Assembly: GCF_964213995.1 (NCBI RefSeq)
Contig: NC_135804.1
Span: 59,458,001-59,522,000, forward strand
Reading direction: 5' to 3'
Source of the DNA: Mustelus asterias
Taxonomy: Eukaryota
DNA: 64,000 nt
The position numbers and the translations under genes are program-made. The notes beneath the pieces were generated by a model that saw nothing but the letters and a program-made list of their open reading frames with translations, had not been told where the DNA came from and did not search any database. Positions 7,817-43,902 of the stretch are shown here, in pieces. Position 1 is the stretch's first letter. Every line of letters starts with the position of its first letter.

Positions 7817-8005
7817 GTATAGGGATATTCTCTATCCCAGATGGCTTATTAAATAAAACATTTTTCCACAGTTCTCACATCATGTAATTCGTATGTCTGT
7901 AATCGTTTTCTGTTTTGCATTTCCATGCAGAAATGTGTACCAAAGTCTCTGGTTTCACATTGAATACAGTGAATTAATACAAACCTTGAATATATTTTCT
8001 AACAG

Positions 8006-8326
8006 GTAATCCAGGAGCTTCGATCAGGGTGTCTCAAAGTCCTAAACAGGTAACTATATTGAGGGGGACAAATATCAGATTCTACTGCATAATCCCCCTT
8101 TCTCATGACAATGTGGATGTCGAGGTGCTTTGGTGGAAACAGGGTGAGAATAAATATATGACAAATGGAACCGATGACAGAAAACGATTCGATTTCAAAA
8201 CTAAAGGAGGTGGTTCATTTGAGCTGCGAAACGCGACTCTCCAGGACTCAGGAATCTATCACTGCGCAGTGATCCGTCAGGGAAAAAATAGTGGAAATGG
8301 AACAGGATCAAATTTAACTGTCTGCG
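8006..8326 (+). CDS. Gene A exon 2, Ig V-set domain with germline J-like G strand
   Basis: Acceptor ttttctaacag; VSQSP..FYC..VLWWKQ..LQDSGIYHC..GNGTGSNLTV; phase-1 donor G/GTAAGT; 321 nt. Confidence 0.95.
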
Positions 8327-8932
8327 GTAAGTGACTGAAATGACCGGGAACCTCAAGCACGCTGTTTTGCCATTGTTTTATTGTGCTGCCTTTGATGTTG
8401 TAAAGCTCTGTGCACAACTGCTAATTACGCAGCGGAATGTGACATTTTATTTGCTGTGTTATTCCAAACTGCTGGAAATACTCAGCAATTCAGGGCATGT
8501 CTGCGAAGAGAGAGGCAAAGTTAAAGTCTCAGGTCTATCAACTTTTTGAGTAAAATGTTACCTGATTCATCTCAAAATGTAATTTTTACATCAGGTTTCT
8601 TAGTCCGAGGTTGGCCCACCGTAGTCTCGATTCCCCAGCCAGAGGAAACAACCTCGCCGAATCTATCCTGTCAAGCACATTTACAATCTTGAATGTTCCA
8701 ATGACATCACTTCATTCTAACTTTTTCGTTTTTCGCCTGTATGAGCTTCCATAAATCTATATAACCTTGCTTTTATTACCGGTGTCGGACAGATTGTTTT
8801 TCTCTTGCGGACGCTGGAGACTGATCTCTTCTTACTAACATAAAGGGAAGCGAATGAGGATATAATTCATTTCTCATTCCTTCCGCTGAACATTTCTTCA
8901 CCAACCTGACTTTCCCCATGTTTTGTTCGCAG

Positions 8933-9244
8933 CTGCACCAACTCCGTTGAAGATTTTCGCTAAGCATCCCGCAAGCAACTCAACTACGTTCCTGACTCTT
9001 GTGTGTCAGACGGCTGGATTTTACCCGGGTGATTTGACCCTCCTTTGGTATAAAAATGGCGTGAACATCGCAACAGTGGGAAATCCGATCAAACAGCAGA
9101 ACGCAGAAGGACTGTATGAAGTTTTCAGCTCTTTTGAAGAGCCGCACTTTGTGCGGAACGAAGCTGTTTACATCTGTTTGGTAATTCACATCTCCCTCCG
9201 GACTCCCGCCATTGCCATTCACACCGTTACCAACTCCTGCTCAG
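8933..9244 (+). CDS. Gene A exon 3, Ig C1-set domain
   Basis: Acceptor ttttgttcgcag; TLVCQTAGFYP..L.WYKNG..GLYEVFS..YICLVIHISL; donor CAG/GTATGT; 312 nt, phase 1/1. Confidence 0.95.
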
Positions 9245-10559
9245 GTATGTTGCCGACAGGCCAAGAATCAATCTCCAAATTCAGTAAGGGGCATTTCTTG
9301 GAGTTTATTGGCATTGGCAATGATGCGTCTAATTTTAAAATAATATCCCGAAATATCCAATCTAAGGAAATATTATGTTTTCATTCAAGATATATTGAGA
9401 CAAATATCTTGTCAAACCTAAGTAATTGTACTGACTTCCGACTGAGCGGTGTATTACAGCAGGTTCTTAATTGCTTGAAAATAAAAAAAAGAACAAGTGG
9501 GTTTTCTCTCCCATCCAATTATTTTACACTATGTACCTATTATTAGACATAGAGTTACTTCTTATTTTATTTTCCCAGCATTAGTTTTCCTCACACGATT
9601 TTACAGAAAATAAAGCGTCAGTTTTGTTTTATTGGCCTGATGTGAAAGTGTCAGAAGTTAGCCTTTTAGATAACTCCTATTGGGCCTGTTTCTCTAGAAA
9701 GGTAATTTCGACCCGTAACGTTAACTCTGTTTCCCTCCACAGATGCTGCCGGACCTGCAGCATTTTCTATTTTTGTTTTTCCTTATGCAGTGTTTTGGAG
9801 CGGGGAGGCATTTCATAAAATGCATTTCGACTTTAACTGTGATTTGCTTCCATTAAATGTAACTGAAACTCGTCTGATTAATGATAGCTATTTCCGTTTA
9901 ATTAATAAATAACCGAAATTTAATTTGAGGGTGAAAGGTAAACATTACTTTGACAGCGATCTCCTTTCCGATGTAGTGACCGTCTGCAGTTAATAAACTG
10001 CAGACAATTGAGCATTTATTTTGTTGAATTGAAAAAAAAGTACCCCTTTCAGCCTTGGCAAGTCCAAGTCTCTCTAATTTGCCGCGAATTAATCAAATAA
10101 GAGTGGAAGAGGCAAAGAAAATTGAAGTAGCAGAAAACGTCCTTCTGTCAAACGGAACGTTAACCCTCTCGCGCCAATGATTAGAACATCCGAAACTGGT
10201 AATCTCCCTGGCAGATAATTATGGCCTTGTGCCACTCTTTGTTAAAGTAAGTTACTTTTACTTGCAGCTTATGACGGTAAATGTCATGGCCCCCGGAGTT
10301 CTGGAGTTAAGTCTTTAATTAGAAATACTACATGTAAAATGATTGGGAGACAAAGATAATCCGGCTGCTCGTTTGTAGTTTTTCCACATCATATCTAGAA
10401 AAATGACTTAGGGTAATTTTTAAACGTCCTTCTCCTAGGGCTGCCGTACATAGCTGCTGTAAATATGAGCAGTAGTTTACCCAATCGATTATCGTGAGAG
10501 TCAAGAATAGGTAATGCAGAAACAAATTAAATCACAGACCCAACCATTTCTTCTTGCAG

Positions 10560-10670
10560 ATGCTGATGGTGGATGTCATTACCTCTGGATTTCTAGGTGT
10601 GTCATGGGTGGATTGGTGTTTCTGGTGCTTATAATCATCACTGGGGCGAAATTGATTTCGAAGAATAAAG
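10560..10670 (+). CDS. Gene A exon 4, stalk and transmembrane segment with Arg (DADGGCHYLWISRCVMGGLVFLVLIIITGAKLISKNK)
   Basis: Acceptor ttcttcttgcag, donor AAG/GTAATC, phase 1. Aligns with the gene B TM exon (YLWISRCVMGGLVFLVL vs YYWIPVCALVGLSFLAL; ends KNK vs KNE). Confidence 0.85.
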
Positions 10671-10739
10671 GTAATCCATAATTTTCATTTTGAGATAAAT
10701 CTTCAGGGCGATCGTAAGGGCGCCCTCACGTAATCCCAC

Positions 10740-32135: not shown

Positions 32136-34248
32136 ACTACATTCTGCAGCGTTATGCTTGGTCTCTCTAGGAGCAACAAACAATACTTTTACTGTATACT
32201 AATATATGTGACAATAAAAGATCAATTTAAAAGCAGGGACTTAAAATGGAAGTCCCTTGCCTGTGTGTTTACAAATGGGAATGTGCTAGCTCTGTTCAAT
32301 GTTGTAATGGTTTTTGCAAAACTCTTCATCATTTCCATCTCCAAATTTACGATATGGGGGATACGGTAGGAGGATAAGAATCAGCTTAATAAGGAACATT
32401 CCTCACCAAGTGCCCAGAATGTGTTTAAAGTTGGCTTTTATGGCTGATTTTGGACAATATGCAGAAGCTGTAACTTCCGAGTCACTGAGGTCAGTGTTAC
32501 GGTATTTTAGCATATAGGAAAAATGCAATACGTGTGGGAGATATAAACTTAACTTTCCTAAATCTTGTGCAATCATTAGTAAAAAAAAGACAGACAATGT
32601 ATGCAGGAAGATGCCTTCAGTCATAGAAAGAAATTAATTGAATAATTAAATGTCAATAGACGAAACAGTTAGATTATTCCTGTTGTAACGATAGTGCAAT
32701 TCGGAAAGGTACAGCGACGTGTAAAATAGGACATCCGTTGCACGTGTGTGTCGCTATAATTATAGATTGAAACGCGATGTAAAATAACTGCTGCTATTGA
32801 ATACTAGATACGTCCACAGTGTGTTGCAATGTTGTTACATTTAGAACCGACATGTTCGCATTTCGAGAAGACCGAGTGAAATACGTCCACTGCCAAGTTC
32901 CAATCGTCAATACGCCTTGTCACTATTTAGCAATGTATAAGTGCAGCTCAAAACAGAAACTTACAAACCCCCAGCAATTGGTTTGCACGTTATCAGCTTA
33001 TCCAGATAAAGAGCCAACGCAATAATCTTTTACATACCATAAGTAGAGGTGCCACTATTTGGGTTAATTTAGCATCAAAATTATTTACACTACTTTGTTT
33101 CCGCATTGAGTCAACTGTTGTTTTTCAGGTCAGAAAATTACATGTTAGGACTTTATTGCAAAACGGAATTCGATGCATACCCATAAAGGAGAACTTTGAT
33201 TGCTCTGGAGAAAAAATCAGGAGTGGGAATAATTGGGCAATGCTGTCAAATTGCCAGCACGGATCAAACGGTCGCCTTCTCAGATGCAGGATTCCATAAT
33301 TCGACATGGTGTCATGTGGAAATGGATGTTTGTAAAGCAAGAAACAAACCCGAACCTACTTTCAGTAAGTTAATAGGGAAATCCAAGTATTCAGCTTCAC
33401 CCCTTTTCTATCAGGAGCATCAGCTGAGCTGGATGTGACGCACTGGCATGTACTCAACGTGATAACGGGACGTATGAATAATCTACACGCAGGTTTTTCT
33501 GCGTTACTGAACAAAGTGAACACTGATCGTTAATTTGTAAGAATTCGTAGAAAACCGATTTTTAAATTTTACTTTACTATACAGGTAATTAGGTACCACA
33601 AGACACAATGTACCGTTGTAGCCGAAGGAACATATTTGTCATTATTTAAAAAAATACTCATTGAACAATAATGTATGACAAGAAAGTTACTTTCTTCCTA
33701 AAGCAACGAAAATAAACTTCTTAAAATAACTGAGTAGCAAGTGACTACCATGTACTGCATTATCTGATAGACACGGTATCATACAGTACAAATACTCCTG
33801 CTCGCGGTAGGGCAAAGGGACGCGATCAGTGTCGACCAGAGAAGTGAATTCTGCGTCGAAATTCAATGGCTAATTGATTTTCGCCTCCATATAGCCAGTC
33901 GCTTTTACTCCATTTTGTTTTGCTCTCCGCAGTTCGGCATATTCAGTGCACCTTTCGTTGGCTTTGCCTTTGTCTGAGCCAGTCAACGCTACACGTGCGT
34001 ATATCAGGTCATTACCGACTTTCCTTTGTTGTGTCTGCAAGGTCAATGTTTGAAAACATTGTTTATTGGTTGCTTCGCAAGTCCGCTATTCAAAAGATTC
34101 ATCAGAAAGACACGCAGATCATCTTATAGACAGCATACGGGCAAAGTCATAAGAACATAAAAACATAAGAAATAGGAGCAGGAGTAGGCCATCTAGCCCC
34201 TCGAACCTGCCCCGCCATTCAATAAGATCATGGCTGATCTGACGTGGA

Positions 34249-37200
34249 TCAGTACCACTTACCCGCCTGATCCCCATAACCCTTAATTCCCTTACCGATC
34301 AGGAATCCATCCATCCGCGCTTTAAACATATTCAGCGAGGTAGCCTCCACCACCTCAGTGGGCAGAGAATTCCAGAGGTTCACCACCCTCTGGGAGAAGA
34401 AGTTCCTCCTCAACTCTGTCTCAAACCGACCCCCCTTTATTTTGAGGCTGTGTCCTCTAGTTTTAACTTCCTTACTAAGTGGAAAGAATCTCTCCGCCTC
34501 CACCCTATCCAGCCCCCGCATTATCTTATAAGTCTCCATAAGATCCCCCCTCATCCTTCTAAACTCCAACGAGTACAAACCCAATCTCCTCAGCCTCTCC
34601 TCATAATCCAAACCCCTCATCTCCGGTATCAGCCTGGTGAACCTTCTCTGCACTCCCTCCAATGCCAATATATCCTTCCTCATATAAGGGGACCAATACT
34701 GCACACAGTATTCCAGCTGCGGCCTCACCAATGCCCTGTACAGGTGCATCAAGACATCCCTGCTTTTATATTCTATCCCCTTCGCAATATAGTCAACATC
34801 CCATTTGCCTTCTTGATCACCTGTTGTACCTGCAGACTGGGCTTTTGCGTCTCATGCACAAGGACCCCCAGGTCCCTTTGCACGGTAGCATGTTTTAATT
34901 TGTTTCCATTGAGATAGTAATCCCATTTGTTATTATTTCCTCCAAAGTGTATAACCTCGCATTTCTCAACGTTATACTCCATTTGCCATATCCTCGCCCA
35001 CTCACTCAGCCTGTCCAAATCTCTCTGCAGATCTTCTCCGTCCTCCACACGATTCACTTTTCCACTTATCTTTGTGTCGTCTGCAAACTTCGTTACCCTA
35101 CACTCCGTCCCCTCCTCCAGATCATCTATATAAATGGTAAACAGTTGCGGCCCGAGTACCGATCCCTGCGGCACGCCACTAGTTACCTTCCTCCAACCGG
35201 AAAAACACCCATTTATTCCGACTCTTTGCTTCCTGTCGGATAGCCAGTCCCCAATCCACTTTAACACACTACCCCCAACTCCGTGTGCCCTAATCTTCTT
35301 CAGCAGCCTTTTATGGGGCACCTTATCAAACGCCTTTTGGAAATCCAAAAACACCGCATCCACCGATTCTCCTCCATCAACCGCCCTAGTCACATCTTCA
35401 TAAAAATCCAACATGTTCGTCAAGCACGACTTTCCCCTCATGAATCCATGCTGCGTCTGATTGATCGAACCATTTCTATCCAGATGCCCTGCTATCTCCT
35501 CTTTAATAATGGATTCCAGCATTTTCCCTACTACAGACGTTAAGCTGACCGGCCTATAGTTACCCGCCTTTTGTCTCCTTCCTTTTTTAAACAGCGGCGT
35601 AACATTAGCCGTTTTCCAATCAACCGGCACTACCCCAGAATGCAACGAGTTTTGATAAATAATCACTAACGCATCCACTATTACCTCTGACATTTCTTTC
35701 AATACCCTGGGATGCATTCCATCCGGATCCGGGGACTTATCCACCTTCAGTCCCATTAGTCTACCCAGCACTGCCTCTCTGGTAACATTAATCGTATTAA
35801 GTATTTCTCCTGCTGCCAACCCTCTATCGTTAATATTTGGCAAACTATTTGTGTCCTCCACCGTGAAGACCGACACAAAAAACTTATTTAAAGACTCAGC
35901 CGTATCCTCATTTCCCACTATTAACTCCCCCCTCTCGTCCTCCAAGGGTCCAACATTCACTCTAGCCACTCTATTCCTTTTTATATATTTGTAAAAACTT
36001 TTACTATCATTTTTTATATTAATTGCTAGCCTAGCTTCATAGTCTATCCTTCCTTTCTTTATCGCTTTCTTAGTCTCTCTTTGTTGTTTCTTAAATTTTT
36101 CCCAATCACTTGTTTCTCCACTATTTTTGGCCACTCTGTACGCAGCTGTTTTTATTTTAATACTCTCCTTTATTTCCTTCGTTATCCACGGCTGGTTCTC
36201 CCTTTTCTTACAATCCTTGTTTTTTGCTGGAATATATTTTTGCTGAGAACTGAAAAGGATCTCCTTAAAAATCCTCCACTGTTCCTCAGCTATCCTACCT
36301 GCCAGCCTGCTCTCCCAGTCTACCTTAGCCAATTCATCCCTCATCCTATCATATTTCCCTCTGTTCAAACAGAGGACACTGGTTTGGGACCAAACTTTCT
36401 CCTCTTCCATCTGAATCAGAAATTCGACCATATTGTGGTCACTAGACCCAAGAGGATCCTTCACAATAAGATCCTTAATTCTACCTACCTCGTTACACAA
36501 TACCAGATCCAAAATAGCTCGTTCCCTCGTCGGTTCCGTAACATGCTGTTCAACGAAACTATCCCGACAGCATTCTAAGAACTCTTCCTCCATTCCACCC
36601 TTACTGACTTGAGTCTGCCAGTCAATGTCCATGTTGAAGTCCCCCATGATTATTGCCGTTCCGTTTTTACACGCATCCCTTATCTGCTTGTTTATAGCCC
36701 TCCCTACCTCAACATTATTATTTGGGGGCCTATATACCACACCTACTAGTGTCTTTCTCCCTCTACTATTCCTCATCTCTACCCATAATGATTCCACGTT
36801 TTGTTCCTCAGAGCCTATGTCATCCCTCAGTACTACCCTGATATTATCTCTTATTAATAGCGCGACCCCACCACCTTTTCCTTCCTGTCTATTCTTCCTA
36901 AACGCCTGATACCCCTGGATATTCATCTCCCAGTCCTGGTCACCTTTCAGCCACGTTTCTGTAATGGCCACTAGATCGTACCCACTTGTGCTGATTTGCA
37001 CCATCAACTCATTTACCTTGTTCCGAATGCTTCGTGCATTCAGGCAAAGTGTCCTTATTCCAGCTTTTATCTGGACCCGCTTTGATGAGTCGCGAACACC
37101 CTCTCCCTCTACTCCCTTATCTAAATTACCGCCTTCATTCACTTGCACCCTCTCCTCTACCATTAATTTTGTAATTCCCCTTACCCCTGCATCCTCCCCC

Positions 37201-37253
37201 CCATCAATTAGTTCCTTGATCCTAGTCAACTCTTCTAGCTCCCCTCCCCCCAA
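34249..37253 (-). CDS. CR1 ORF2p (APE endonuclease plus reverse transcriptase) with one 1-nt deletion near 34790
   Basis: [41 protein letters not shown]. The 826-aa and 167-aa ORFs join as ML(x)YIAKGIEYK if one base is restored. Confidence 0.92.
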
Positions 37254-37258
37254 CCTAT

Positions 37259-38197
37259 CTAGTTTAAATTCTCCCCAGTAGCCTTAGCCAACCTACCGGC
37301 CAGGATATTGGTCCCCGTGTGATTCAAGTTCCACCCGTTTTTTGTATACAGATCACCCCTGCCCCTAAAGAGGTCCCAATGGTCCAGGAACCTGAATCCC
37401 TGCCCCCTGCACCAGTCCCTCAGCCACACATTCATCCTCCACCTCACTCCATTCCTGCCCTTACCTTCCCGTGGCACAGGCAGTAATCCTGAGATTACTA
37501 CCTTTGCTTTCCTCTTTCTCAGCTGTCTCCCTAATTCCCTGTACTCCCTTTTCATGACCCCTTCTCCCTTCCTACCCACATCAGCGGTACCAATATGTAC
37601 CGCTACCTCAGGCTCCTCTCCCTCCCACCTCAGGATTTCCGGGACGCGACTAGTGACATCCTGGATCCCGGCCCCAGGGAGGCAGACCACCATGCGAGAC
37701 TCCCGCCTGCCTCCGCAGAAACGCCTGTCTGTCCCCTTCACCATCGAGTCCCCGATTAATACCGCCTTCCTCCTCTTTTCCTTAGCCCTCTGAGTTACAG
37801 GGCTGGACTCCACTGCGGAGACATGGCCACTGCTGCTTCCCCCAGGCGGGCTGTCCCCCCCAGCAGTACTCAAGCAGGAGTACTTGTTGTGTAGGGGCAA
37901 ATCCACTGGGGTGCTCTCAACCACCCTAGCCTTACCCTTCCTGGCCGTCACCCACTTGGCCTCCTCCCGTGGCCCTGGTGTGACCACCTGATGATAGCTC
38001 TTGTCTATCACCTCCTCATTCTCCCTCATCAGCCTAAGATCCTCGAGCTGCAGTTCCAGCTCCCTAACACGGTCCCTCAGGAACCGCAGCTCGACACACC
38101 CCTCACAGATGTGGATGTCCGGGAGGCCAGATGCCTCCAGGACCTCCCACATCCTACAGTGGGAACAGCACACTGGTTTCACACTCATACTGGACAC
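37259..38197 (-). CDS. CR1 ORF1p: zinc finger/leucine zipper plus SGNH esterase-like domain (312 aa)
   Basis: CSHC..HICEGC, LRDRVRELELQLEDL, LIGDSMV, VCLPGA, VHIGTAD, ISGLLP; uninterrupted. Confidence 0.93.
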   Translation of the reverse strand: MSSMSVKPVCCSHCRMWEVLEASGLPDIHICEGCVELRFLRDRVRELELQLEDLRLMRENEEVIDKSYHQVVTPGPREEAKWVTARKGKARVVESTPVDLPLHNKYSCLSTAGGDSPPGGSSSGHVSAVESSPVTQRAKEKRRKAVLIGDSMVKGTDRRFCGGRRESRMVVCLPGAGIQDVTSRVPEILRWEGEEPEVAVHIGTADVGRKGEGVMKREYRELGRQLRKRKAKVVISGLLPVPREGKGRNGVRWRMNVWLRDWCRGQGFRFLDHWDLFRGRGDLYTKNGWNLNHTGTNILAGRLAKATGENLN

Positions 38198-38362
38198 TTT
38201 ATGTCAAGTAAGACAGTGAAAAGTTAATAAGAGTGTAAGGAAACAAAAACTCACCCCTGCTCGTCCAAGCCCTGTGAGCCAAAGCCCTGACAGCTCACTC
38301 AACTTCCCACTCACTCTGCTGCCCGCTACGATGCTGCCCGCTGTATACTTTGGTGCACTTTT

Positions 38363-38704
38363 AAACCCTCCAAAAACTTCCCCAGGCCTCTGCTGGCCCG
38401 ACTTCCGGTTTTGAAAAAAACCTCCGATTTTAAACCCAAAATTAACTGAAAAAATAAATAATTAATTACAGTCAGAAAACCCAGTCTCTTACCCTCAGCC
38501 TGCTCCTGGGAACAATGAAGCTGAACCTCCAAGGTAAGCCCTTTTGAAACCCTCCAAAAACTTCCCCAGGCCCCTCCTGGCCCGACTTCCGGTTTTGAAA
38601 AAAACCTCCGATTTTAAACCCAAAATTAACTGAAAAAATAAATAATTAATTACAGTCAGAAAACCCAGTCTCTTACCCTCAGCCTGCTCCTGGGAACAAT
38701 GAAG
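38363..38704 (-). promoter_or_regulatory. CR1 5'UTR tandem monomers (184-bp period), putative internal promoter
   Basis: Near-identical blocks start at 38363 and 38547; each has CCGGAAGT (ETS consensus) on the element strand. Confidence 0.75.
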
Positions 38705-38761
38705 TCAACAGAGACATATTTACTGCTTTGTCGCATGGGTGTTGATCTTACACTGGTGTAC

Positions 38762-38878
38762 TTATTTTCCCTGATCGGTTACTCGGCCCCACCTGAGCAT
38801 ACTCACCTCGTCACGTTTATGCTTTGGAGTTTTGCTCAAATCTAATGCGGCATAATGCACAAATTCAGACGCATTTTC
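38762..38878 (-). CDS. Gene B exon 6, cytoplasmic exon with ITIM VHYAAL (ENASEFVHYAALDLSKTPKHKRDE...)
   Basis: Acceptor ttttgtccaagcag (NAGNAG), phase 0 matching exon 5. Stop at 38762-38764 if unspliced, or donor GAG/GTGAGT after 38807. Confidence 0.75.
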   Translation of the reverse strand, partial: ENASEFVHYAALDLSKTPKHKRDEVSMLRWGRVTDQGK

Positions 38879-39303
38879 CTGCTTGGACAAAACGGAAATT
38901 TTTTGTTACGCAGCTGGTTCAATGTGTTCAGCAGTTTACAGTAATTCTGGTCAAACATTGAGCGGATTAACCTGGGATCGAATAGACGTGAGCAAAATAT
39001 AATTAATTTACATTTACCGAAGACACCCTAGACTTTACACTCCGATACCAAATATTTAAACCCGCCAATTTCACTCGACATAATTGTTACACAAATGTTG
39101 AAACAGGCGGCAGCTTCATTACGTACAACTTATTTTCGATCTGAATGAATAAATGAATTGATGAAAACGTACTAACTGGATTTTCAACGAGGTAAGCAGT
39201 TCTCTTTTCGAAGTGTTTATCACTGTTTGCCAATAAAAGCACGCGGTGGCAACTAAATTTCCACATCCGATTGAAATGTAGAATCTCATTGAGACAAAAC
39301 AAG

Positions 39304-39580: not shown

Positions 39581-39624
39581 CAGTTCCTCGCTCCGGTTCT
39601 CTCCTGTTAAACGCCCGTCTTTAC
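39581..39624 (-). CDS. Gene B exon 5, cytoplasmic (GKDGRLTGENRSEEL)
   Basis: Acceptor cttatttccag, donor CTG/GTACGT; 44 nt, phase 1 to 0, bridging the TM exon and the ITIM exon in frame. Confidence 0.7.
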
Positions 39625-40344: not shown

Positions 40345-40458
40345 CTTCATTCTTTAGCATTTGTTGCCGCCTCGTAATGACGATCGCAAGCGCGAGGAAC
40401 GACAATCCAACCAACGCGCACACTGGAATCCAATAGTAAGGAAATTTCGGGATATTTT
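40345..40458 (-). CDS. Gene B exon 4, stalk and uncharged transmembrane segment (ENIPKFPYYWIPVCALVGLSFLALAIVITRRQQMLKNE)
   Basis: Acceptor aatcttgcag, donor AAG/GTAAGA, phase 1/1, RR stop-transfer. Confidence 0.9.
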
Positions 40459-42024: not shown

Positions 42025-42336
42025 CTCGGTTCGGTTTAGGAATCGTGTACGCCACAATAGCCGGAGTCTTGAGGGCGACATGAGATACCCGGCATGTATA
42101 ATTGCCGTCTTTCGGTACAGGCTGAATCTCAACCAAAGTGCTGGAAACTTCATACAGTCCCTCTCTGTTCTGCACTTTACTGGTGTGTATTCCTGATGCA
42201 GTTTCGACGCCATTTTTATACCAAGTAAGGGTGAAATTTTCCGGATAAAATGCAGCCGTTTTACAAACGAGGGTCAGAGGCGCAGTCGAATTCCCTTCAG
42301 TTGTCCTGGAGACAAGATTCAGTGGGGTTGGGGCCG
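42025..42336 (-). CDS. Gene B exon 3, Ig C1-set domain
   Basis: AAPTPL..TLVCKTAAFYPENFTLTWYKNG..GLYEVSS..YTCRVSHVAL; 312 nt as in gene A; canonical AG/GT. Confidence 0.95.
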
Positions 42337-43844: not shown

Positions 43845-43902
43845 CTGTATGAATAATTCCTCGGAGGATCAAGTACAGAAGCACCATGATCGTTGTCATC
43901 AT
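43845..43902 (-). CDS. Gene B exon 1, signal peptide MMTTIMVLLYLILRGIIHT, with non-canonical donor ACAG/GCACTA
   Basis: Position homologous to gene A exon 1 (TTGCA before the ATG, ends ACA G); donor is GC, not GT. Confidence 0.75.

What the first reader, a model, noticed from the sequence alone, without database searches (positions are those of the whole stretch)
38701..38878. Hidden four-tyrosine (SIRP-alpha-like) tail of gene B spread over three reading frames
Seen on the minus strand: VHYAAL (Tyr codon at 38854, in frame), EYAQV (38801), NKYTSV (38760) and SKYVSV (38718). The spacings are 53, 41 and 42 nt, so restoring one base in each of the first two intervals gives a single ORF with four YxxL/V motifs, the last three 14 aa apart. 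As written, the protein keeps only the first ITIM, and a perfect GAG/GTGAGT donor lies at 38807/38806. Inference: either mutational trimming of an inhibitory tail or two assembly indels.
Basis: partly seen in the sequence, partly recalled or inferred. Interest (0 to 1): 0.7.

Follow-up and report, generated by a model that had tools for sequence, protein, structure and literature searches.

The report
Shark receptor lost one tyrosine motif
The supposed hidden tail of this shark immune-receptor gene is mostly intron: the gene has an overlooked last exon with two more predicted brake motifs, and a small old deletion likely moved a splice site and left one weak tyrosine motif behind as a fossil, an ordinary event in this gene family.

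Summary
The four Tyr codons, spacings and donor are as stated, but the four-Tyr ORF is not real. Gene B has an intact last exon at 34034-33870 (LIYARV, TEYAEL), missed because a 4.5-kb LINE sits in the intron. Splicing at 38807 keeps the frame and gives three motifs. NKYTSV and SKYVSV are intronic: no long-form paralogue has them, their frame is closed by stops there, and the closest paralogue lacks NKYTSV. Assembly error is excluded: a paralogue, a second sample and two other organisms keep the offsets. One part is real. EYAQ is the relic of the family's second tyrosine, ending at the old donor (38793/38792); its V is the intron's GT. Four paralogous exons have 69 nt between the first two tyrosines, gene B has 53 (9 + 7 nt lost, not 1). 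The 7-nt loss likely made the new donor, which restores the frame. This tyrosine is the family's weakest (hydrophobic +3 in 5 of 23) and is missing in 7 of 30 models. No RNA junction was seen; exon skipping remains possible. The scan noted this receptor family before in other genomes, not this donor shift.

The parts
43845..43902 (-). Likely leader exon of gene B; its donor reads GC where sister copies read GT
   Evidence: resembles the N-termini of P0005 and P0006
43357..43677 (-). V-set Ig exon
   Evidence: PF07686, E 3.8e-09
42025..42336 (-). C1-set Ig exon
   Evidence: PF07654, E 4.2e-13
40345..40458 (-). Transmembrane exon
39581..39624 (-). First cytoplasmic exon (44 nt)
38807..38878 (-). 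ITIM exon (72 nt, phase 0-0) with VHYAAL, ending at the derived donor GAG/GTGAGT
   Evidence: use of this donor is inferred
38793..38806 (-). 14-nt relic of the old exon end with the second Tyr codon (38801); old donor CAG/GTGGGG at 38793/38792
   Evidence: alignment with L042, L043, L045 (two copies) and L038; proteins P0005, P0006, P0010, P0011
38707..38792 (-). Intron sequence holding the chance readings NKYTSV (38760) and SKYVSV (38718)
   Evidence: homologous to paralogous introns (0 of 1000 shuffles reach the score), not to last exons; in-frame stops in paralogues
34150..38701 (-). Non-LTR retrotransposon (endonuclease + reverse transcriptase), 4552 nt, flanked by a 6-nt target duplication (38707-38702, 34149-34144); absent from paralogue L002/L048
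33870..34034 (-).
   Evidence: matches the last-exon part of P0002, P0005, P0010

Best explanation
Gene B is a V-C1 transmembrane receptor gene, predicted to be inhibitory, whose 72-nt ITIM exon is likely spliced at 38807 across a LINE-swollen intron to an intact last exon, which would give three tyrosine motifs; EYAQ behind the donor is likely a fossil of the family's second tyrosine, and NKYTSV and SKYVSV are intron sequence. Steps. Shown: exon anatomy, open frame, LINE with target duplication, 69 nt against 53 nt between the first two Tyr positions, the old donor right after YAQ. Inferred: in an ancestor of gene B and its closest copies a net 7-nt loss just before the second Tyr shifted its frame and brought GAG next to GTGAGT (a weaker GAG/GTGACA lies at this place in L045); the new donor, on a codon boundary 14 nt upstream of the old one, keeps the last exon in frame. 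The lost Tyr would have had Thr at +3, so it was probably not an ITIM and its loss probably cost little. Inferred from known ITIM biology, untested: after ligand binding the remaining motifs would be phosphorylated and recruit SHP-1/SHP-2.
For: Six exons from V to stop, all with AG acceptors and the five internal ones with GT donors, translate as 342 codons with one terminal stop. Last exon intact here and in L002/L048; intron there 205 nt. Four paralogous exons have 69 nt Tyr1-Tyr2 and end on YxQ/P followed by GT; MAFFT puts gaps of 9 and 7 nt in gene B. V+C1 tree nests gene B, L048 and L037 (99/99) among long-form copies. Family models of sharks, a ray and a chimaera mostly show spacing 23/14/23. 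Tyr2 column: Tyr in 23 of 30, hydrophobic +3 in 5 of 23, Thr in 13; the other three columns have hydrophobic +3 in 27 of 28, 27 of 27, 25 of 26. New donor matches 8 of 9 consensus letters, old donor 7 of 9. Same offsets in L002, sample S2 (record 19, 0 gaps) and organisms B and C (records 11 and 1).
Against: The use of the 38807 donor rests on sequence alone. The one NCBI model of the closest paralogue (P0002) skips this exon. The leader donor of the three gene-B-like copies reads GC with a poor consensus. Window against L048 shows more amino-acid-changing than silent codon differences in V (14:4), C1 (7:2) and last exon (6:5), ITIM exon 1:2, which shows no clear purifying selection. The long-form paralogues in this genome are partly broken themselves. 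The place of the 7-nt gap is alignment-dependent. Heterodontus model P0004 also ends this exon early and its DNA was not seen. The 30 tails include near-duplicates and are gene models.
Confidence: 0.65

Rival explanations
1. The 7-nt loss made the ITIM exon useless and it is skipped; the receptor carries only the two motifs of the last exon.
For: NCBI model P0002 of the paralogue joins the first cytoplasmic exon to the last exon; skipping keeps the frame; a third copy, L037, has lost this exon under a LINE.
Against: Acceptor, open frame, VHYAAL and a near-consensus donor are intact in both copies; 2 of 3 codon differences are silent; P0002 also lacks the family-type leader, so it may be poorly supported; L037 is also frameshifted in its last exon.
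Confidence: 0.15
2. Gene B is a decaying pseudogene; the tail changes are drift.
For: Leader donor GT changed to GC in all three gene-B-like copies; excess of amino-acid changes against L048; many neighbours are broken.
Against: No stop or frameshift from V to the last exon; an in-frame ATG 24 codons before the V exon with a hydrophobic run is open in all three copies; excess amino-acid change in V is usual in immune receptor clusters (general knowledge).
Confidence: 0.1
3. The old donor at 38793/38792 is still the main one; the last exon is read out of frame and the tail ends soon, with one ITIM only.
For: The old donor is intact (7 of 9 consensus letters) and identical in L002; the stop would fall in the last exon, which by the usual rule would escape decay (rule recalled).
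Against: The upstream donor matches better; the last exon keeps its open frame and both motifs in both copies.
Confidence: 0.07
4. One reading: a single exon with four YxxL/V motifs decayed by two one-base deletions.
For: The window does lack one base in the second interval relative to L042, L043 and L045, and L042/L043 have a Tyr codon in exon frame at the SKYVSV position.
Against: That codon reads YISG behind three in-frame stops in L042/L043 and is a stop in L045; no Tyr at the NKYTSV position in any of the four; first interval is 16 nt short, not 1; family spacing is 23/14/23 across a splice; the frame would run on into the LINE.
Confidence: 0.02
5. One reading: two assembly indels.
For: None found.
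Against: L002 (93% identical) has the same 53-nt interval; a contig of sample S2 spans 38745-38988 with no gap; contigs of organisms B and C differ from L002 by 9 inserted bases over this span, giving the window's 136 nt.
Confidence: 0.01

Closest known systems
Cartilaginous-fish V-C1-TM receptor cluster (NCBI models labelled SIRP-alpha-like, tapasin-related-like, CD276 homolog, NCR3LG1-like; e.g. XP_067853517.1, XP_067853772.1, XP_067906051.1, XP_007902825.2, XP_078066559.1)
   Same: V-C1-TM layout, 67-87% V identity to the six best hits other than P0001 and 73% to P0001, same Tyr1, Tyr3, Tyr4
   Different: Gene B lacks 16 nt in the ITIM exon, likely uses a new donor and so lacks Tyr2; LINE in the last intron
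Mammalian SIRP-alpha (SHPS-1)
   Same: V and C1 domains, best solved-structure hit for P0002 (2wng, E 1.5e-17); ITIM and ITSM-like motifs in the tail (ITYADL, LTYADL, TEYASI in passages of PMC5413580)
   Different: One C1, not two (SIRP layout recalled); not beside the genes recalled as SIRP neighbours; ligand unknown
Splice-donor shift / partial intronization
   Same: Short donor displacement that turns exon end into intron and keeps the frame (passages of PMC5010894)
   Different: Here the shift is 14 nt, not a multiple of three, and is in frame only together with the 7-nt loss

Membership tests
   stops in 4 of 4 long-form paralogous exons; NKYTSV deleted in L002
Cartilaginous-fish V-C1 ITIM receptor cluster | V-C1-TM ectodomain related to the cluster's models | tested here: met
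Cartilaginous-fish V-C1 ITIM receptor cluster | Tail of two Tyr pairs on two exons (23/14/23) | tested here: met
   both exons present; Tyr2 present only as a relic
SIRP family | V-C1-C1 ectodomain (recalled) | tested here: not met
   one V and one C1 ORF on the minus strand
SIRP family | ITIM/ITSM-bearing tail in the inhibitory member | tested here: met
   VHYAAL, LIYARV, TEYAEL; SIRP-alpha motifs in PMC5413580
SIRP family | Position beside NSFL1C and PDYN (neighbours recalled, from no call) | tested here: not met
   SEP-domain genes on C7 and C20, opioid-precursor matches on C5, C7, C20, C13; cluster is on C4
SIRP family | Binding to CD47 | not testable with these tools
   CD47 family search found no match and rang nowhere in controls: uninformative
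ITIM inhibitory receptor | Tyr phosphorylation and SHP-1/2 recruitment | not testable with these tools
   motifs only
Non-LTR retrotransposon (LINE) | Endonuclease + RT ORF, target duplication, simple-repeat 3' end | tested here: met
CR1 clade of LINEs | RT phylogeny | not tested
   label recalled from resemblance only

The most novel reading that the evidence does not exclude
One 7-nt deletion created two competing donors 14 nt apart that are both used, giving a long three-motif receptor and a short one-ITIM receptor whose stop lies in the last exon: a splice-tuned brake born in one step and kept in at least three shark species.
Probability: 0.12. Interest if true: 0.5.

Novelty: new member of a known kind. 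Interest (0 to 1): 0.2.

Why it matters
As proposed (hidden four-Tyr tail, or assembly error) the finding does not stand. What remains is a tidy small case of a frameshift likely rescued by the donor it created, and a corrected gene model in a large, little-described shark receptor cluster. It shows that Tyr2 is the dispensable tyrosine of this family, and it gives a simple RT-PCR test of three splice forms. It answers no long-standing question.

Tried and rejected
RNA: no RNA holder listed. Seven runs were laid, all as contigs; no joint at 38807, 38793 or 34034 was listed, and 602 joints were not shown. X20 (RNA by guess) had a contig fitting only 42028-42335, the C1 exon, but another ran from exon into intron, so it settles nothing. 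Intron as a decayed copy of a last exon: rejected, scores 16-19 against shuffle means 17-18 for 4 last exons. Orthologue DNA outside this genome could not be fetched, so exon borders in Heptranchias and Heterodontus are inferred from proteins. A search with the L045 exon found only its own two copies. CD47 search blank. Papers: no hit for SIRP + cartilaginous fish + ITIM + shark or signal regulatory protein + shark + evolution + multigene family; searches listed nothing on this cluster by title or abstract start; passages of PMC10751288 and PMC12227049 have no 'SIRP'. Subscription papers and supplements were not seen and may describe the cluster. Earlier notes: nothing near this place or like this sequence. 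No structure or complex was predicted.

Full report
Observation. The minus strand has Tyr codons at 38854, 38801, 38760 and 38718, read as VHYAAL, GEYAQV, NKYTSV and SKYVSV in three frames. The donor GAG/GTGAGT is at 38807/38806. Such clusters are common when any frame is allowed: 35 runs of three Yxx[LV] within 90 nt and 19 runs of four within 140 nt in this window, overlapping runs counted.

The gene. Joined at these borders the frame is open for 342 codons to one stop, with VHYAAL, LIYARV, TEYAEL and one more Tyr without a motif. The last intron is 4772 nt because a LINE lies at 38701-34150 between 6-nt target duplications. The paralogue 333 kb away (L002/L048, 93% identical) lacks the LINE and has a 205-nt intron. 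NCBI model P0002, labelled Mustelus asterias, is identical to this paralogue in V and C1, so the genome is of that species or a very close one.

Not an assembly error. L002 has the same 53-nt first interval and lacks NKYTSV through a 9-nt deletion. A contig of a second sample spans 38745-38988 with two letter differences and no gap (record 19). Laid on L002, a contig of organism B has 18 gap letters, all listed, 9 of them between the first and fourth Tyr; a contig of organism C is 9 letters longer over the span, with the places of 7 of them not shown (records 11 and 1). Both give 136 nt, as in the window, not the 138 that a single frame needs.

What EYAQ is. Four exons in the same cluster (L042, L043, two in L045) and a degenerate fifth (L038) align with this exon and run on in frame to YxQ/P followed by a donor. 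First to second Tyr position is 69 nt in all four; in gene B it is 53. The alignment shows gaps of 9 nt (in frame) and 7 nt, the second just at the new donor, and aligns EYAQ and CAG/GTGGGG (38793/38792) with their exon ends. So the V of EYAQV is the GT of the old intron. Heptranchias models have TVYAQ or IVYAQ here, followed by sequence matching the last exon. A V+C1 tree of 18 rows nests gene B, L048 and L037 (99/99) among long-form copies, so the long form is most likely ancestral (midpoint root, L043 not included). L045 has a weaker GAG/GTGACA (6 of 9 consensus letters) at the place of the new donor; the new donor has 8 of 9 and the old one 7 of 9. Inference: the 7-nt loss shifted the frame of the exon end and made a better donor on a codon boundary, which rescues the last exon.

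What the two later motifs are. The 91 nt behind the old donor are homologous to the introns of L042 and L045 (0 of 1000 shuffles reach the scores) and not to four last exons. Read on in exon frame, these introns have stops in 4 of 4 copies. Against my reading: the window lacks one base here relative to those copies, and L042/L043 have a Tyr codon in frame at the SKYVSV position; but it reads YISG behind three stops, L045 has a stop codon there, and none has Tyr at the NKYTSV position. Two or more Yxx[LVI] arose in 4.7% of shuffles of this stretch.

The family tail. A search with a Heptranchias tail gave 27 proteins; of ten looked up, all are shark, ray or chimaera models. I aligned 30 tails: 24 new ones and six held before (P0012 and P0008, with the same tail as P0010, left out). 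Most show spacing 23/14/23. Tyr is present in 28, 23, 27 and 26 of 30 at the four columns; hydrophobic +3 in 27, 5, 27 and 25 of those; Tyr2 has Thr at +3 in 13. Tyr2 is missing in 7 of 30, P0002 and P0004 included. Gene B's last exon starts with Thr, so its Tyr2 would have been of the weak kind. The set has near-duplicates and consists of gene models.

Open points. No transcript junction was available. P0002 skips the ITIM exon. The leader donor of gene B, L009 and L010 reads GC where L008 and L011 read GT, though an ATG with a hydrophobic run lies in frame before V. Codon differences against L048 show no clear purifying selection. Heterodontus model P0004 also ends the exon early, groups weakly with L042 (81/93), and its DNA was not seen.

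Comparison. The gene works like SIRP-alpha in having V and C1 domains and an ITIM/ITSM-like tail, but it has one C1 and does not lie beside the genes I recall as SIRP neighbours, so I do not file it as a SIRP. It belongs to the cartilaginous-fish V-C1 cluster that NCBI already models. Short donor shifts are known (passages of PMC5010894). Searches listed no paper on this cluster. I read passages only of PMC10751288, PMC5010894, PMC12227049 and PMC5413580, and no supplements. Earlier notes of this scan describe the same family in other genomes; they are leads, not support.

Verdict. The hidden four-tyrosine tail is not a real feature; a relic second tyrosine and a likely donor shift are. Interest 0.2.

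Noticed in passing
window 43845/43844; L009, L010: Leader donor reads GC with a poor consensus in all three gene-B-like copies, GT in L008 and L011; an in-frame ATG 24 codons before V with a hydrophobic run is open in the three.
   Followed up: partly
L008/L038 and L011/L040 (G000:C4 59.19 and 59.35 Mb): V domains 96-97% identical to gene B's but C1 only 75-79%; L038 has an Arg in its TM exon and a degenerate ITIM exon: likely activating partners kept alike by conversion.
   Followed up: partly
L037 (G000:C4 59.65 Mb): Third gene-B-like copy: first cytoplasmic and ITIM exons replaced by LINE-like sequence, frameshift in the last exon.
   Followed up: partly
L045:3778-4587: ITIM exon tandemly duplicated 702 nt apart; last exon has an early stop.
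   Followed up: no
window 38359-38520 and 38543-38704: The 5' end of the LINE carries a 162-nt direct repeat, 98% identical.
   Followed up: no
G000:C4 58.8-60.0 Mb and 67.6-70.0 Mb: Two large clusters of V-C1 genes (110 exon matches scored of 583 candidates); a unit of about 160-170 kb appears three times near 59.5-59.9 Mb.
   Followed up: no
window 7990-10672 (+): Gene A, a V-C1-TM paralogue of the other subclade; no ITIM exon was found for it in the window.
   Followed up: no
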